This document shows, in pieces, positions 1 through 63,000 of a DNA stretch of 64,000 bases. The position numbers were made by a program. Each line of letters starts with the position of its first letter. Position 1 is the first letter of the stretch. The DNA comes from Octopus vulgaris (lineage: Eukaryota), in the NCBI GenBank assembly GCA_951406725.2, contig OX597840.1, forward strand, positions 16,430,001 to 16,494,000. Direction: 5' to 3'.

Positions 1-3000
1 TCACCCACCACCTTCCACAATCACCATCACTACCACCAGAGCCATCACTTCAGCCACTACCACCACCACCAGCAACATCATCCCCACTGCCTCCACCAAT
101 ACAAACACCACCACTATCACTACCATCAGCCCCATCACCACCACCACCACCATCATTTTGATGGCAACAAATTTCTGTATCTAACGTTTTCCGCCCCCAT
201 CACAAATTTCTCATTGAAGGTCCCAAGGTCCTTCCTGACACAAATAAACTCGTAGAAATCTTCAGGAGACAAGAATTTAAACCTGACCCCATGGGAACAA
301 GTCTACTATTCGCTTTCATGGCTCAACATTTTACTCACCAGTTTTTCAAGACTGACCTAACCAAAAATCCCGACATGCAATGGGGCAATCAAGGCGTAAG
401 TACATTATCCATCTAACCATCTGTCTGTCTATCTATCTATCTGTCTGTCTGTCTGTCTGTCTGTCTGTCTGTCTGTCTGTCTATCCATCAGTCTGTCTGT
501 CTGTCTATCTATCCATCTATCTATTTGTCTATCTGCCTGTCCGTCTGTCTGTGTGGCTGTCTGACTCTCCCTCCCCCTCTCTCTCTCTCTCTAATATATA
601 TATATATAAATATATTTTTATTTTTTATTCTTTTATTCTTTTACTTGTTTCAGTCATTTGACTGTGGCCATGCTGGAGCACCGCATTTAGTCGAGCAAAT
701 CTGACCCCAGGACTTATTCTTTGCAAGCTTAGTACTTATTCCATAGGTCTCTTTTGCTAAACTGCTAAGTTAGGGGTGATGTAAACACACCAGCATCAGT
801 TGTCAAGTGATGTTAGGGGGACAAACACAGACACACACACACACACAAACACTTATATATGACAGACTTCTTTCAGTTTCTGTCTACCAAATCCACTCAC
901 AAGGTTTTGGTCAGCTCGAGGTTATAGAAGGCACTTGCCCAAGGTGCCATGGAGCGGGACTGAACCCGGAACCATGTGGTTGGTAAGCAAGCTACTTACC
1001 ACTCACACGCACACACATCAACCAAAACTGTCCGATGAACGGATACGTTAAACTCTGAGTAACAGTATTTGTGATGTCTCTGCAGCTTTATTAAAAAAGT
1101 ATATAAATATATACATACATATATATATATATATATATATATACACACTCATGTGAGGTGGGGTGTTGAAAAGTTCCCGGCTTTAAGAGCATGGTGAAGT
1201 GACTGGTTGGAGGCCCAACCTTCTGAGTTCTTTTACAGGGTCTTAGAAAAACTGAAGGACTACTGCAATAAGTGTGTGAGTTTGAGAGAGGAATATATTG
1301 AATAAAATCATAATTAACTGATCCTCCCACACAAAGCCTCTTACTCAAAGCCAAGAACTCTTCAGTATCCCCTCTTATATGTATGTATGTATATAGAATA
1401 TATATATATCTATCTATCTATCTATTTAAATATATATATACACACACACACATACATATATACTTATATATATATATATATATATATATATATATATAGT
1501 TAATCCAAACATGAACAAAGAGAAAACACAACAATGCGAGGACTTGGAACAAGTATAGTGTTATTGGACGCTCAGGAAAGGAAAGAAAGAAGGAGGATTT
1601 CACATTTTGAGCGGAGCTCTTCATCAAAAATGTAGAAAAGAAGAAGAAAAAGTCCAAGGAAGGGAAGATGGAGAAAGAAAATCGTCAACGATACACACGT
1701 GGTCGTATATACATGCTGAGACCCCCTTTGGTCATGAATGACCATGGGATTGCACCTAGAAAGTTCCCCTCCAAGGCACAAGTCTGGGCAAGGTTGTTTA
1801 TGGAAGACCAGCAGTCACCCATGCATACCAGCCTCCCCTCTCCACACCAAAGGAAAGGCAAAGGGGCCAATACAGCTTGGCGACTGTGACGTCGCAACTA
1901 ATTTCTACAGCTGAGTTAAGTGGAGCAATGTGAAGTAAAGTGTCTTGCTCAAGAACACAACACACAGCCTGGTCCAGGATTCAAACTCACAACCTCATGA
2001 TCATAAGCTTGACGCTCTAACCACTGAGCCATGTGCCTTCACACACACACACACACATACACACACACACAAATACACACACACACAAACACAGACACAG
2101 ACAGACAGACACACACACACACACACACACATATATAGCTGTTTAAGAATCTAAGAATCCATAAATTAGAAAAATTATACACTCATATATTTGTTAATAG
2201 AGTGAGTATAGTAATCCCAGTGTACAGTTTTATATATCCGTTACCGCCAACCTTATCAATTGGTTTCGCATTAGGGGTTCCATGAGGTGTTAGATAGTGG
2301 CCCGATTATTTCACCTTGTGCACTTCTTGTTTTCTTCCATAATTGCCCTCTCTGAAAAGTGCAAATTTGCATAAACTTGTTGTTAGCTAACACCCTGTTG
2401 AACCCCTAGTGCAAAACCAATTGATAAAATCAGTTCACACTGGTTATATAATACCGTTTCAGTGGGTTGATTAGTATGTCTCAGGCCCAGGTATAGTTAC
2501 AATTTCTTGGTTCTCATGTGTCAGCTATAAGCAGTGGAAAGAAATACAAGAAAATGTGTTGCTATTAATTTGTACAGCAACAGGTTGGTCACATCATGAT
2601 GATACCGTCTGGAGATAAATGTTCATATTGTTTTACAAATCAGTTTGAAATTAGTGATGTGTGCAGGGCAGACAGGAACTGAAGTACCTGGCATCCCTTC
2701 TTGAAGTCTCTCATCCTCTCTGCTTACATTAAAGCTACTTGCAAATAACTCTCCTCTCTCCTTGAAGATTCCCACCTCATTGGAGAAAATAGGAGACATC
2801 ATTCTATTTAAAGATGATTTGGGGCTCCAGTGTGCAAACATATTTTGCTGCGCTTGGTTGGCCCATACTAGGGCCACTTCGACCATCTTGGACCCCTGTC
2901 ACCCAGTTTTCATTAAATTTATTAGAGAGTATTAACTCCCATTCATAGAAATAGCAGCCAAGATATTCCCATCTTTAAAAGAGAGAAGGACACAATGGAT

Positions 3001-60000: not shown

Positions 60001-63000
60001 CAAGAGGTGATTGATGCTTGTGTCTCCTTTCCTGTAGATTCTGCATTTTATGTTGGAGTTCTGTCGATTTTTGCCTTTATCAGATTTGTTCTAATGGCTT
60101 GTTCCTGAGCAGCTATAGTTAGCATTTCTGTCCCTCATTTCACATTCTTGTCTGTCTTTTTACATCCTTGTTTTGTTGCATGAATTGGCCATGTAATTAT
60201 CTTTCTGTCTGCATACTGTATGTCCTGCAACCAGCAGGCACATTTGTCCTATCCCAGGCAAAACCAAAATCATCCATGTCCCCACTGTAACTTCCTAGCA
60301 AAATCCATAACTGGATTCATGTTATGTTCATGCATCTATCATAAATAGCTGCAGCTTCTTTTGCACTTTTATTTTTAAAGTTGTTTTTTCTTTGTCTCAT
60401 TTTTTTCCTTTTAAATCCTCTCCTTCAAACACTCATAAATGAAATCGATGGGAGTGACCATTATTATTATCATTATTATTATTATTATTGTGGAGCTATG
60501 TCAAATAGCTGCTGTCATGTGTGAGATGGATCCATCAGTCGGCTGAGTCTGTAGTGATGAATGCACTGCTGTCCTCCTTCGATTGGGCAGGCAAGGCAGT
60601 TTTCCTTTGTCTGGAGGTTGTTTGGTGGACAAAGCTGAAAGGCATGAGGACAGATCCATTCCTCTTTGGTAGAGCTCTCATTGACTTCTTCAAGTTTCAC
60701 TTGAAAAGGAAATTGTGAGTGGAGAGGGAAGTGCTGTCCTCGAGTGAGTTTGTTGAAAGGTGAGTGAAAGTTGCGAAAATGTCAAGAGTGGATGGTACCT
60801 CTCTAAGTGTTGGTCTGTGAGTCGGGGAGAAGGAATTGGAGAGGGTACTTGCTCTTGGAGTTTTAGGGAAATCTTGGACAGTGAGGTTTCTTGATTATCC
60901 TTAGAGGCCTTCCTGTATCAGGAGGATCACATCTCTATCATCCTCGCTGCCACTTTTTCTTTTATTTTAACCTTTGTATGCTATGCATTTGTCCCTTCTT
61001 TTTCAAAGTATACTGTTTATACTTACTTTTTTTTCTTTTTTTTATCGTTTCATTACATGTAAACCCTTACACTTTATGTCTGTCATTGTATTGTCTCTCT
61101 CATCCTTCACCCTTGCAGCAAATAAATGAAATCATTATTATTATTATTATTATTGTTATTATTGTTTTACTTCTCAGAGTGCTCGGTTTTGTTGGCTCTG
61201 CTGACAGAGGCCCCACAGGGTATCTTTCTACACATTATAATCTTTGATAACTAGATGTTAATTATTGTGGAAGACATTCAACACCCAAGTACCAGTCTCA
61301 AAATCCTAGCTGTCCCCAGCAGAGCAGTTTTTTTAGGCTTGCTCTGCTCTCACGTTCCACTTGAAAAGGAAAATAAGGGAAGAGAGAGAAGTGTCGTCTT
61401 TTAGCCAGTTTGCTGAGAGGTGGATGAAAGTGGTGAGATTGGTGCGAGTGAACAGGCTTGCCCTGAGCATACGCCTGTAGTTGGAAAAAGGAACAGAAAA
61501 AAAGGCACCTGCCCCAAAAGTCCATGGTTTTTTATGGGGTTTTCCCATGAGCATCCCTTGAACATCTCCTCCCTATTCAGGATTACACATTGTTGATTTC
61601 TTTCTTTTCAATTTTGTCAGTCTTGTTTACATGCAAACCCCTCACAACACATACTCACACACACGCATGCATTCTTTATTTTGTTCTGTACAGTCCATAA
61701 TATTTTTCTTAATGTAAACCCTTGTGGTTAATAAAGAAATTATCATCATCATTATTATTATTATTATTATTATTATTATTATTATTATTATTATCATTAT
61801 TATTATTATTATTATTATTATTATTATTATAATTATCATTATCATTATTATTATTATCGTCATCATCATCATTATTATTCAGTAGTATTATTTTTATAAC
61901 ATGCTTTCACTGCACTACTGAGTGCAGCTCTGTGTGCCTTGGGTTTATTGTGCTGTGGTTTGTTGTGATGTTCTTATTGTTATTGTATTGAAAGTGTTTT
62001 ACGTAGGATGTGTGCAATGCCTAGTAGTGCTATTTTCTGTATGTTATATATATTTGTTAGTCCTGGTGTTTTTGTTATGTATTTTTCTGAATATTTTTTT
62101 ATCATACCTAATGAGCCCTTTATGACAGGAATTTCTCTTTTTAGACTCCACATTCGAGTTACCTCTATTTCCAGGCCTTTGTATTTTAAAATTATTATTA
62201 TTATTTTTTTTTTCTAGCTAACACAGCTTGCTGTTCATTCCCATGCCAGAACAATGGGATATGTTCACCCACTGGGCGAAATGGTTATATTTGCAATTGC
62301 CAGAACAGTGGTTACTATGGCACCAATTGTGAATACGGTAAGTACACATGACTCGGACAAGAATTGACTCTGTATCCATTTCTATTGTTGATAAAAATAT
62401 TGTCCATTGTGATCCACCAGGCCTTTATACCCAATCAAACATATTCTCTCTGTGACCATTCATCTTCTTGCATTTCAAGGACTGCAGTGTCCAATGAAAT
62501 CTTTGTATTTTTTATTTAAGGACAGCAGAGTATGATTTGAGGGAGGTTTGACTACCATTTCTGGAAGGTCAAGTGACCTTGCAGTGGCTCTTCCATGATG
62601 AGTGCTTGATAATGTCAGTAATATAGCCAAGTGGTTATAGTACCTGACTGCAGTTCAAAAGATCTTAGGTTCAAATCAACTGCAGACATCTTGGGGAGAA
62701 TATTGCCTGAGTTCAACAAATTGTTCACTGGAACTGGAGCCAGATCTGATAAGGATTTTTACCAAAGATTGTGGTGCTTTATCTACAAGAACATTTGTCT
62801 AATGAATTCTCAGGTATATATAAGTTCTGAGCTTATAAGGGCCTGTCAGAAAGGAACAATGGCGGCGAGCTGGCAGAAATGCTTAGCGGTATTTCGTCTG
62901 TCGTTACGTTGTGAGTTCAAATTCCGCCAAGGTTGACTTTGCCTTTCATCCTTTCAGGGTCAATAAATTAAGTACCAGTTATGCACTGGGGTCGATATAA

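What the first reader, a model, noticed from the sequence alone, without database searches (positions are those of the whole stretch)
220..62337. Two cyclooxygenase genes in tandem in an apparent cephalopod genome
Seen: the 3' six exons of one COX end at 37465, and a new signal-peptide exon plus a COX-type EGF exon begin at 58487 and 62218 on the same strand. Known: vertebrate COX-1 and COX-2 are unlinked, and invertebrate duplicates arose independently. Inference: a lineage-specific tandem COX duplication, possibly with divided roles in prostanoid signalling. The 3997, 18594 and 62218 exons do not appear in the ORF track.
Basis: partly seen in the sequence, partly recalled or inferred. Interest (0 to 1): 0.8.

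Follow-up and report, generated by a model that had tools for sequence, protein, structure and literature searches.

The report
Octopus cyclooxygenase gene beside divergent paralog
This Octopus window holds the end of the ordinary prostaglandin-making cyclooxygenase gene and, 21 kb downstream on the same strand, the start of a second, very divergent copy that is already in public annotation and seems to have lost the tyrosine needed for cyclooxygenase chemistry.

Summary
The window is Octopus DNA, closest to O. vulgaris. Six AG/GT-bounded exons (220-37465, + strand) encode residues 154-612 of the known Octopus cyclooxygenase (COX), "prostaglandin G/H synthase 2". Exons at 58487-58568 and 62218-62337 encode the signal peptide and EGF domain of a different protein, RefSeq "prostaglandin G/H synthase 1-like" (P0066, 591 aa).

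The two proteins are 37% identical and the two EGF exons 51%, so mis-ordered assembly is excluded. Both genes lie on contigs of the same length in O. sinensis, O. bimaculoides and O. vulgaris, so the pair is conserved and already annotated.

- The downstream gene has Leu where all 11 other aligned COX proteins have the catalytic Tyr385. It keeps both haem histidines, the disulfide cysteines and a COX fold.
- It diverges between Octopus species no faster than the canonical gene. It is probably a constrained non-cyclooxygenase derivative, not a second prostaglandin synthase.
- Its branch is very long. A cephalopod-specific origin is neither shown nor rejected, and a recent Octopus-only origin is rejected.

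Interest is modest.

The parts
220..395 (+). Gene 1 (canonical COX, 'prostaglandin G/H synthase 2'), coding exon for residues 154-212. It holds the distal haem-site motif with Gln203 and His207. It starts in phase 1.
   Evidence: tblastn of P0001, E 1.9e-34. AG at 218-219 and GT at 396-397.
3997..4080 (+). Gene 1 coding exon, 84 nt, residues 213-240.
   Evidence: tblastn E 1.0e-12. Pfam An_peroxidase E 1.3e-5. Splice sites.
5458..5704 (+). Gene 1 coding exon, 247 nt, residues 241-322/323.
   Evidence: tblastn E 5.4e-51. Pfam An_peroxidase E 1.5e-16. Splice sites.
9781..10067 (+). Gene 1 coding exon, 287 nt, residues 323-418. It holds Tyr348, Tyr355, Tyr385 and His388.
   Evidence: tblastn E 1.2e-59. 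Database search with this exon alone gave the Octopus vulgaris COX at 96% over the whole open frame. Splice sites.
18594..18738 (+). Gene 1 coding exon, 145 nt, residues 419-467.
   Evidence: tblastn 49 of 49 identical, E 9.6e-26. Sequence and splice sites.
37026..37465 (+). Gene 1 last coding exon, residues 467-612. It holds Ser530, ends in ...NEL, and has stop TGA at 37463-37465. AATAAA occurs at 37476 and 38827.
   Evidence: tblastn 146 of 146 identical, E 1.3e-91. Splice site and stop. Hexamers.
58487..58568 (+). Gene 2 (divergent COX paralog, RefSeq 'prostaglandin G/H synthase 1-like') coding exon 1. It has the ATG and a signal-peptide-like stretch with six Met codons from an (ATG)6 run at 58520-58537. 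It ends in phase 1.
   Evidence: tblastn of P0066 E 1.2e-7 and of P0078 E 2e-9. Donor GTGAGT at 58569. Signal-peptide function is inferred from composition and position only.
62218..62337 (+). Gene 2 coding exon 2, 120 nt: the COX-type EGF domain with all conserved cysteines.
   Evidence: 40 of 40 encoded residues identical to P0066. Pfam EGF E 1.2e-5. Only 51% identical to the EGF of gene 1's protein. Splice sites.
37466..58486 (.). Intergenic 21,021 bp. It contains no host-gene-like frame, only retroelement remains and microsatellites.
   Evidence: RVT_1 ORFs at 48129-48923 (+) and at 50805-51848 and 51815-52549 (-). A PHD-finger ORF at 48839-49372. No Rfam match.

Best explanation
The window is a piece of an Octopus chromosome, closest to O. 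vulgaris, carrying two neighbouring members of the cyclooxygenase (prostaglandin G/H synthase) family in head-to-tail order.

The upstream gene, of which the last six coding exons are present, is the canonical enzyme. Its product has every residue examined that the COX reaction needs. It should make PGG2/PGH2 from arachidonate in the usual way: a haem-driven tyrosyl radical at Tyr385 abstracts hydrogen from the substrate, and the peroxidase site reduces the hydroperoxide.

The downstream gene, of which the first two coding exons are present, is an old and highly divergent paralog. It most simply arose by local tandem duplication. It then changed very fast and has since been held under constraint.

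Its product keeps the secretory signal, the EGF and disulfide framework, the COX fold, both haem histidines, Arg120, Tyr355 and Ser530. It has Leu at the Tyr385 position and a reshaped substrate channel and distal haem pocket.

I infer that it cannot run the cyclooxygenase reaction. It probably acts as a haem-binding, possibly peroxidase-type or regulatory, protein rather than as a second prostaglandin synthase.

Shown: the exon structure, the adjacency, the identity of both genes, the substitutions and the between-species conservation. Inferred: loss of COX activity, retained haem binding, origin by tandem duplication, and any present function.
For: - **Exons and identity.** Exons and splice sites are. 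The window's last exon matches the O. vulgaris proteins P0001 and P0068 at 146 of 146 residues, against 145 of 146 for O. sinensis and 144 of 146 for O. bimaculoides.
- **Distinct proteins.** Gene 2's exons belong to P0066 (XP_036370478.1), which is 37% identical to gene 1's protein over 588 columns.
- **Conserved linkage.** In each of three Octopus species the gene 1 and gene 2 records sit on contigs of identical length: 20,263,137, 22,553,649 and 40,227,843 bp. Their accession numbers nearly adjoin.
- **Active-site changes.** I checked 35 active-site positions in a 13-sequence alignment. Gene 2 has a residue seen in none of the other 11 sequences at 14 positions: 116, 203, 205, 206, 349, 352, 359, 377, 382, 385, 523, 528, 529 and 533. 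Gene 1 does so at 1. R120, H207, Y348, Y355, W387, H388, E524 and S530 are kept.
- **Tyr385 position.** Of 101 HWH motifs in the 257 proteins held, 96 are preceded by Y, 4 by L (all four Octopus gene 2 records) and 1 by Q.
- **Role of the residues.** The roles of Y385, H207, H388, R120, Y355 and S530 are stated in PMC8062024, section 34 (passages seen).
- **Fold.** PDB sequence search gives E 7e-113 to human COX-2. The AlphaFold model has pLDDT 81 and pTM 0.82. Foldseek gives TM 0.83-0.89 to COX-1 and COX-2 structures.
- **Constraint.** Gene 2 shows 22 mismatches and 2 gap positions over 593 columns between O. sinensis and O. bimaculoides. Gene 1 shows 22 mismatches over 612 between O. vulgaris and O. 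bimaculoides.
- **Hints of shared origin with cephalopod COX.** A one-residue deletion is shared by all six cephalopod-type rows and by at most 10% of the other 26 rows. There is also a shared W..YEES stretch in the otherwise hypervariable C-terminal region. A clade of gene 2 with cephalopod gene 1 is not rejected (p-AU 0.188).
Against: - Everything about gene 2 beyond residue 66 comes from predicted RefSeq and ENA proteins of Octopus species, not from the window, and I saw no transcript data.
- No tree supports gene 2 as sister to gene 1. With a cyanobacterial outgroup it falls at the base of animal COX, with a long-branch warning. Without the outgroup it sits in a polytomy.
- A count of residues shared exclusively with each clade gave no signal. 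Gene 2 shares 1 of 11 columns with cephalopod gene 1 and 3 of 50 with Octopus gene 1, but 7 of 57 with amphioxus and 5 of 72 with the coral.
- Equal protein divergence is only a proxy for purifying selection; dN/dS was not computed.
- Loss of Tyr385 predicts loss of the known mechanism but does not exclude some other oxygenase chemistry.
- The 35 positions were chosen from my recollection of the COX literature.
Confidence: 0.8

Rival explanations
1. One reading: two catalytically active COX isozymes from a lineage-specific tandem duplication that divide prostanoid signalling between them, as vertebrate COX-1 and COX-2 do.
For: Tandem, same-strand arrangement. Gene 2 keeps the COX fold, haem histidines, Arg120, Tyr355 and Ser530. 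It is conserved between species.
Against: Leu replaces Tyr385 in 4 of 4 Octopus gene 2 records. All 11 other aligned COX, and 96 of 101 HWH motifs in the proteins held, have Tyr. Gene 2 has further unique changes at Gln203, Asn382, Gly533, Pro528, position 523 and others. The role of Tyr385 in hydrogen abstraction is stated in PMC8062024.
Confidence: 0.1
2. Gene 2 is a decaying or non-functional duplicate (pseudogene) that annotation pipelines still model as a protein.
For: It has lost the catalytic tyrosine and has a stem of about 3 substitutions per site. The O. vulgaris annotation holds only a 259-residue fragment. The structure model has low-confidence loops at residues 119-136 and 198-208, where gene 2 has its own deletions.
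Against: Open frames of 591 and 593 residues are intact in two species and 96.0% identical, the same as the canonical gene at 96.4%. All EGF and disulfide cysteines and both haem histidines are kept. The window's two exons have intact ATG, splice sites and frame. The fold is confidently predicted.
Confidence: 0.1
3. Gene 2 is an ancient COX-family paralog, older than cephalopods or molluscs, that merely lies next to the canonical gene. It is not the product of a duplication within the cephalopod lineage.
For: Free trees place it outside the cephalopod canonical clade. A sister relation to Octopus gene 1 alone is rejected (p-AU 0.014). There is no excess of residues shared exclusively with cephalopod COX.
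Against: No relative closer than 35-38% identity was found outside its own Octopus cluster. This held both in the word-indexed search of 5.8 billion clusters and in the exhaustive scan of 1.84 billion representatives. Adjacency in the same orientation, a shared one-residue deletion and a shared C-terminal motif with cephalopod COX point the other way. The clade with cephalopod COX is not rejected. Long-branch attraction explains the basal placement (warning).
Confidence: 0.2
4. Assembly artefact: the 58487 and 62218 exons are the true 5' exons of the gene whose 3' exons start at 220, placed downstream by mis-ordering.
For: None beyond the fact that gene 1's own 5' exons lie outside the window.
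Against: Gene 1's protein has its own signal peptide and an EGF domain only 51% identical (20 of 39) to the 62218 exon. The 62218 exon is 40 of 40 identical to a different 591-residue protein with its own catalytic domain. The same two genes co-occur on one contig length in three independently assembled species.
Confidence: 0.01

Closest known systems
Octopus 'prostaglandin G/H synthase 2' (QHX41555.1 O. vulgaris; XP_029652597.1 O. sinensis; XP_014768109.1 O. bimaculoides)
   Same: Gene 1 in the window is this gene. Residues 154-612 match with one substitution against the O. vulgaris mRNA-derived protein. It was used as 'the' cephalopod COX and NSAID target in PMC9953149 (passages seen).
   Different: Nothing of note. 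The 5' four or so coding exons lie upstream of base 1.
Octopus 'prostaglandin G/H synthase 1-like' (XP_036370478.1 O. sinensis; XP_014768111.1 and XP_052833197.1 O. bimaculoides; CAI9741821.1 O. vulgaris fragment)
   Same: Gene 2 in the window is the ortholog or same gene. Exon 2 is identical, and exon 1 differs only in the length of the poly-Met run and one residue.
   Different: The database name implies a COX-1-like enzyme. The sequence is 37% identical to the canonical Octopus COX and about 35% to vertebrate COX-1 and COX-2. It lacks Tyr385, so the name overstates what is known.
Vertebrate COX-1/COX-2 (PTGS1/PTGS2) isozyme pair
   Same: Two paralogs share the same domain plan: signal peptide, EGF, membrane-binding domain and haem catalytic domain. 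The fold is the same, with TM 0.83-0.89.
   Different: Both vertebrate isozymes are active and keep Tyr385, and their genes are unlinked (recalled). Here the genes are adjacent and one has lost Tyr385. In the trees, vertebrate COX-1 and COX-2 form their own clade separate from both Octopus genes.
Lineage-specific invertebrate COX duplicates (for example Potamilus streckersoni and Mytilus trossulus pairs; Havird et al. 2015, J Mol Evol 80:193)
   Same: Duplicated COX genes within one invertebrate lineage. The two Potamilus proteins are sister in the tree (100/99) and sit on a contig of the same length, 738,633 bp, so linked duplicates are not unique to Octopus.
   Different: Those pairs have short branches and keep Tyr385. 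The Octopus paralog is extremely divergent. Of Havird et al. I saw only the title in reference lists; the paper is not held. Whether its 'homologs with low sequence identity' include something like gene 2 is unchecked.
Catalytically dead enzyme paralogs (pseudoenzymes), for example trypanosomatid AdoMetDC prozyme
   Same: A paralog that keeps the fold, loses a key catalytic residue and stays under constraint (abstracts of PMC5201418 and PMC5106787 seen in the listing).
   Different: No evidence here that gene 2's product binds or regulates gene 1's product. This is an analogy, not a tested relation.

Membership tests
Cyclooxygenase / prostaglandin G/H synthase (gene 1) | Animal haem peroxidase catalytic domain of COX type | tested here: met
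   Pfam An_peroxidase on single exons (E 1.3e-5, 1.5e-16 and 2.1e-4) and on P0001 (E 8.4e-47). Exons are 100% identical to P0001 except I165V.
Cyclooxygenase / prostaglandin G/H synthase (gene 1) | Catalytic Tyr385, haem His207 and His388, Arg120, Tyr355, Ser530 | tested here: met
   All are present in P0001 and P0067. Those from 203 onward are encoded inside the window's exons. Arg120 lies upstream of base 1.
Cyclooxygenase / prostaglandin G/H synthase (gene 2) | N-terminal signal peptide followed by a COX-type EGF domain with conserved cysteines | tested here: met
   Window exons 58487-58568 and 62218-62337. Pfam EGF E 1.2e-5. The EGF cysteines are invariant columns in A1. Signal-peptide function was judged by eye only.
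Cyclooxygenase / prostaglandin G/H synthase (gene 2) | COX fold and haem ligands (distal His207, proximal His388) | tested here: met
   Tested on P0066, whose sequence lies outside the window. PDB E 7e-113. Model pLDDT 81 with TM 0.83-0.89 to COX structures. H207 and H388 are kept.
Cyclooxygenase / prostaglandin G/H synthase (gene 2) | Catalytic tyrosine (Tyr385) that abstracts hydrogen from arachidonate | tested here: not met
   Leu in P0066, P0077, P0078 and P0079. Tyr in the 11 other aligned COX. Gene 2 is therefore a member of the COX protein family by descent and fold, but should not be filed as a cyclooxygenase enzyme.
Cyclooxygenase / prostaglandin G/H synthase (gene 2) | C-terminal ...EL endoplasmic-reticulum retrieval-type ending | tested here: not met
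   Gene 2 proteins end ...ELSEF, with three residues beyond an aligned EL. All 11 other sequences in A1 end in EL. This is not strictly defining: crustacean COX lack the signal (PMC8062024).
Cyclooxygenase / prostaglandin G/H synthase (both genes) | Conversion of arachidonate to PGG2/PGH2 | not testable with these tools
   Needs an enzyme assay.
Tandem gene duplicate | Adjacent, same orientation, no other gene between | tested here: met
   Both are on the + strand with 21,021 bp between stop and ATG. Only retroelement ORFs lie between them.
Tandem gene duplicate | The two copies are each other's closest relatives (sister in a tree) | tested here: inconclusive
   Polytomy and a long branch. A clade with cephalopod COX is not rejected, p-AU 0.188. 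A clade with Octopus COX only is rejected, p-AU 0.014.

The most novel reading that the evidence does not exclude
Octopus keeps, next to its working cyclooxygenase, a constrained COX-derived protein that has given up the Tyr385 radical chemistry while keeping haem ligation and the dimer-forming COX fold. It could be a dedicated non-catalytic or peroxidase-only partner. For example, it might serve as a permanent 'allosteric' subunit heterodimerising with the active enzyme, or as a haem or lipid-binding protein released from ER retrieval by its three-residue C-terminal extension. That would make it the first natural COX pseudoenzyme described. A second unnamed Tyr-less COX-like protein (P0117) hints that such derivatives may recur.
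Probability: 0.4. Interest if true: 0.55.

Novelty: new member of a known kind. Interest (0 to 1): 0.3.

Why it matters
Cephalopod welfare and analgesia work treats the single canonical COX as the NSAID target (PMC9953149). It is useful to know that Octopus has a second, adjacent COX-family gene that is named as an isozyme but is unlikely to be one.

For enzyme evolution, a conserved COX paralog without Tyr385 would be a natural experiment on what the COX scaffold does apart from making prostaglandins.

For genome annotation, the RefSeq names '1-like' and '2 isoform X2' suggest orthology to vertebrate isozymes. The trees do not support that.

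Tried and rejected
- **Trees.** Three maximum-likelihood trees did not place gene 2. With a cyanobacterial outgroup the tool flagged a long-branch join.
- **Exclusive shared residues.** Counting residues that gene 2 shares exclusively with each clade gave noise-level values for all clades.
- **Breaking the long branch.** Adding the other Tyr-less homolog P0117 did not help. It is itself a 3.0 substitutions-per-site branch with no supported partner.
- **Literature.** Six answered searches found no open paper describing the Octopus COX pair or a COX paralog without Tyr385. 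The key comparative paper, Havird et al. 2015, is not held.
- **RNA families.** Rfam at gathering thresholds found nothing in the window.
- **Other genes.** Minus-strand and intergenic ORFs gave only reverse-transcriptase or PHD matches, or none.
- **Complex prediction.** I sent no complex-prediction job for a gene 1/gene 2 heterodimer. The two chains exceed the 1000-residue limit, and a pass would mostly reflect likeness to solved COX homodimers.
- **Collections not used.** The prokaryote-only genome-contig collection and the phage, plasmid and E. coli collections cannot hold this locus and were not used.

Full report
**What is in the window.** The 64,000 bases contain no N and are AT-rich and full of microsatellites. 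Stop-to-stop frames on the + strand show six COX-like pieces between 220 and 37465, and two more at 58487 and 62218.

Single-exon frames went to Pfam and to the protein collection. I never joined the window's exons into one protein, so no search, fold or tree used a joined window model. All full-length analyses used database proteins that those single-exon searches returned.

**Gene 1.** The exon frame 9765-10076 found the Octopus vulgaris prostaglandin-endoperoxide synthase (P0001, QHX41555.1, 612 aa) at 96% over the whole frame, with mollusc COX at 56-67%.

Local tblastn of P0001 against the window maps residues 154-612 onto six blocks, with E-values from 1e-12 to 1e-91. The blocks are identical within the exons apart from I165V. 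Reading the junctions gives exons 220-395, 3997-4080, 5458-5704, 9781-10067, 18594-18738 and 37026-37465. All are AG/GT-bounded and in consistent phase, with TGA at 37463-37465.

As far as I recall (not tested), the lengths 84, 247 and 287 nt equal those of the homologous human PTGS2 exons. The last exon is 146 of 146 identical to the O. vulgaris records, 145 of 146 to O. sinensis and 144 of 146 to O. bimaculoides. The window is therefore O. vulgaris or something very close to it.

**Gene 2.** The exon frame 62190-62348 found one protein only: P0066, 'prostaglandin G/H synthase 1-like' of O. sinensis (XP_036370478.1, 591 aa).

tblastn puts its residues 1-25 on 58487-58567 and residues 26-65 on 62217-62336. 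All 40 exon-2 residues are identical, and the rest of the protein is not in the window. The exons are 58487-58568 (ATG, donor GTGAGT) and 62218-62337 (acceptor AG, donor GTAAGT), with matching phase.

The signal-peptide-like exon carries an (ATG)6 run. This gives six Met in the window and in O. bimaculoides, but three Met plus Thr in O. sinensis.

**Two genes, not a mis-ordered one.** Several results agree:
- P0001 has its own signal peptide and an EGF domain only 51% identical to the 62218 exon.
- P0066 has its own catalytic domain, and P0001 and P0066 are 37% identical.
- The cluster look-up shows gene 1 and gene 2 records on contigs of the same length in O. sinensis (20,263,137 bp), O. bimaculoides (22,553,649 bp) and O. 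vulgaris (40,227,843 bp), with near-consecutive accession numbers.

I infer from the last point that the linkage is conserved and that the pair is already in public annotation. In the window the stop of gene 1 and the ATG of gene 2 are 21,021 bp apart on the same strand. Only retroelement ORFs and repeats lie between them.

**What gene 2 encodes.** I aligned both Octopus genes with rat COX-1, platypus COX-2, mollusc, annelid and coral COX (A1). Rat numbering is ovine numbering plus two, which I checked on R120, H207, H388 and S530. I then tabulated 35 active-site positions chosen from my recollection of the COX literature.

- Gene 1 has the canonical residue pattern.
- Gene 2 keeps R120, H207, Y348, Y355, W387, H388, E524 and S530, all EGF and disulfide cysteines, and one canonical N-glycosylation sequon.
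- At 14 of the 35 positions gene 2 has a residue found in none of the other 11 sequences. These include Q203D, N382K, Y385L, P528L, G533S and Q at position 523.
- Among all 257 proteins held, 96 of 101 HWH motifs follow Y. Four follow L, and these are the four Octopus gene 2 records. One follows Q, in P0117.

PMC8062024 states that Y385 extracts the hydrogen from arachidonate and that H207 and H388 serve the haem (section 34, passages seen).

Gene 2 also has its own deletions of 6 residues after R120 and 6 residues near the distal haem loop. It has a three-residue extension after an aligned terminal EL, so it ends ...SEF where the others end ...EL. Crustacean COX also lack that ending, so this last point is weak.

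The protein still matches solved COX structures by sequence (E 7e-113). A model built from a 36-row alignment has pLDDT 81 and pTM 0.82, and superposes on COX-1 and COX-2 at TM 0.83-0.89. The low-confidence stretches coincide with the gene 2 deletions.

**Constraint.** Between O. sinensis and O. bimaculoides, gene 2 differs at 22 residues plus 2 gap positions over 593 columns (96.0% identity). Gene 1 differs at 22 of 612 between O. vulgaris and O. bimaculoides (96.4%). A decaying pseudogene would not be expected to keep pace with a conserved enzyme. This is a proxy, not a dN/dS test.

**Origin.** Gene 2 has no closer relative outside its own cluster of four Octopus records:
- the word-indexed search gave nothing between 38% and its own ≥90% cluster;
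- the exhaustive scan of 1.84 billion representatives gave 35% as next best.

Maximum-likelihood trees put the gene 2 pair on a stem of 2.5-3.2 substitutions per site. It falls at the base of animal COX when cyanobacterial peroxidases are the outgroup, with a long-branch warning. Otherwise it sits in a polytomy.

An AU test does not reject a clade of gene 2 with the cephalopod canonical clade, which is Octopus plus the unnamed P0080 (lnL difference 2.7, p 0.188). It does reject a clade with Octopus gene 1 alone (lnL difference 15.6, p 0.014). Both groups were named with the first tree already seen.

A shared one-residue deletion and a shared W..YEES stretch in the variable C-terminal region point to common ancestry with cephalopod COX. 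Exclusive shared residues do not.

The best reading is an old local duplication followed by a burst of change. An older origin is not excluded.

**Literature.** Six searches of the open library found no description of this pair. PMC9953149 uses only XP_014768109.1 (gene 1) as the cephalopod COX (passages seen). PMC8835781 counts COX genes across genomes including O. bimaculoides, but the numbers are in a figure I cannot see (section 2.1 read). Havird et al. 2015 is known to me only by its title in reference lists and is not held. Supplements are closed.

**Left unchecked.**
- The flanking scaffold, meaning gene 1's 5' exons and gene 2's remaining exons in this genome.
- Transcript evidence.
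- dN/dS.
- Other cephalopod genomes.
- The metagenome and viral contig collections, which were closed and would not bear on this.

**Verdict.** The genes are real, adjacent and already annotated. Interest is modest, and somewhat higher if the Tyr-less paralog proves functional.

Noticed in passing
window 24482-27972: A tandem duplication of about 1.74 kb (two copies, 96-99% identical, start-to-start spacing 1738-1740) lies inside the 18.3 kb intron between gene 1's last two exons. Each copy holds an internal 268-bp sub-repeat at 64% identity.
   Followed up: partly
window, e.g. 595-976, 11061-11414, 16897-17288, 34565-34905, 38280-38660, 39736-40052: A SINE-like element of about 380 bp gives 18 matches (including itself) on both strands, at 72-88% identity, across introns and the intergenic region. 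Its translated remnants recur in the frame lists.
   Followed up: partly
window 48129-49372 (+), 50805-52549 (-), 53925-54300 (+): Retroelement remains between the two genes: reverse-transcriptase ORFs (Pfam RVT_1) and a PHD-finger ORF. By eye, the first ~125 residues of the ORFs at 51815-52549 (-) and 53925-55172 (+) are identical. That makes an inverted pair flanking a roughly 1.3 kb TA/CA-rich microsatellite at about 52600-53900.
   Followed up: partly
window 58520-58537: An (ATG)6 microsatellite encodes six consecutive Met in the hydrophobic core of gene 2's signal peptide. O. bimaculoides also has six Met, while O. sinensis has three Met and a Thr. The repeat length is variable within a coding signal sequence.
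   Followed up: partly
window 253-255 (codon 165 of gene 1's protein): There is one amino-acid difference (Ile in P0001, Val in the window) from the O. vulgaris mRNA-derived COX protein. The O. sinensis and O. bimaculoides records show the same number of mismatches in this block or one more. Polymorphism, species difference and RNA editing were not distinguished.
   Followed up: no
protein P0117 (unnamed cluster representative, 647 aa; not in the window): This is a second very divergent COX-like protein. It has Gln in place of Tyr385 and, in the pairwise alignment, Phe where the distal His207 aligns. It is 36% identical to Octopus gene 1's protein, closest (40%) to the unnamed P0080, and sits on a branch of 3.0 substitutions per site with no supported partner. 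Tyr-less COX derivatives may have arisen more than once.
   Followed up: partly
proteins P0017 and P0018 (Potamilus streckersoni; not in the window): Two bivalve COX proteins are sister in the tree (100/99), sit on a contig of the same length (738,633 bp) and have locus tags five apart. This looks like another linked, lineage-specific mollusc COX duplication. The two Mytilus trossulus COX sit on contigs of different lengths.
   Followed up: no
window 37476 and 38827: AATAAA hexamers lie 11 nt and 1.36 kb after gene 1's stop codon. Either could be its polyadenylation signal. The 3' UTR end was not determined.
   Followed up: no
whole window: 9,482 bases lie in pure dinucleotide runs of 20 bp or more. 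Long TA/CA-type microsatellites give the many Tyr-Ile, Cys-Val and His-Thr 'ORFs' in the frame lists. No Rfam family reached its gathering score.
   Followed up: partly
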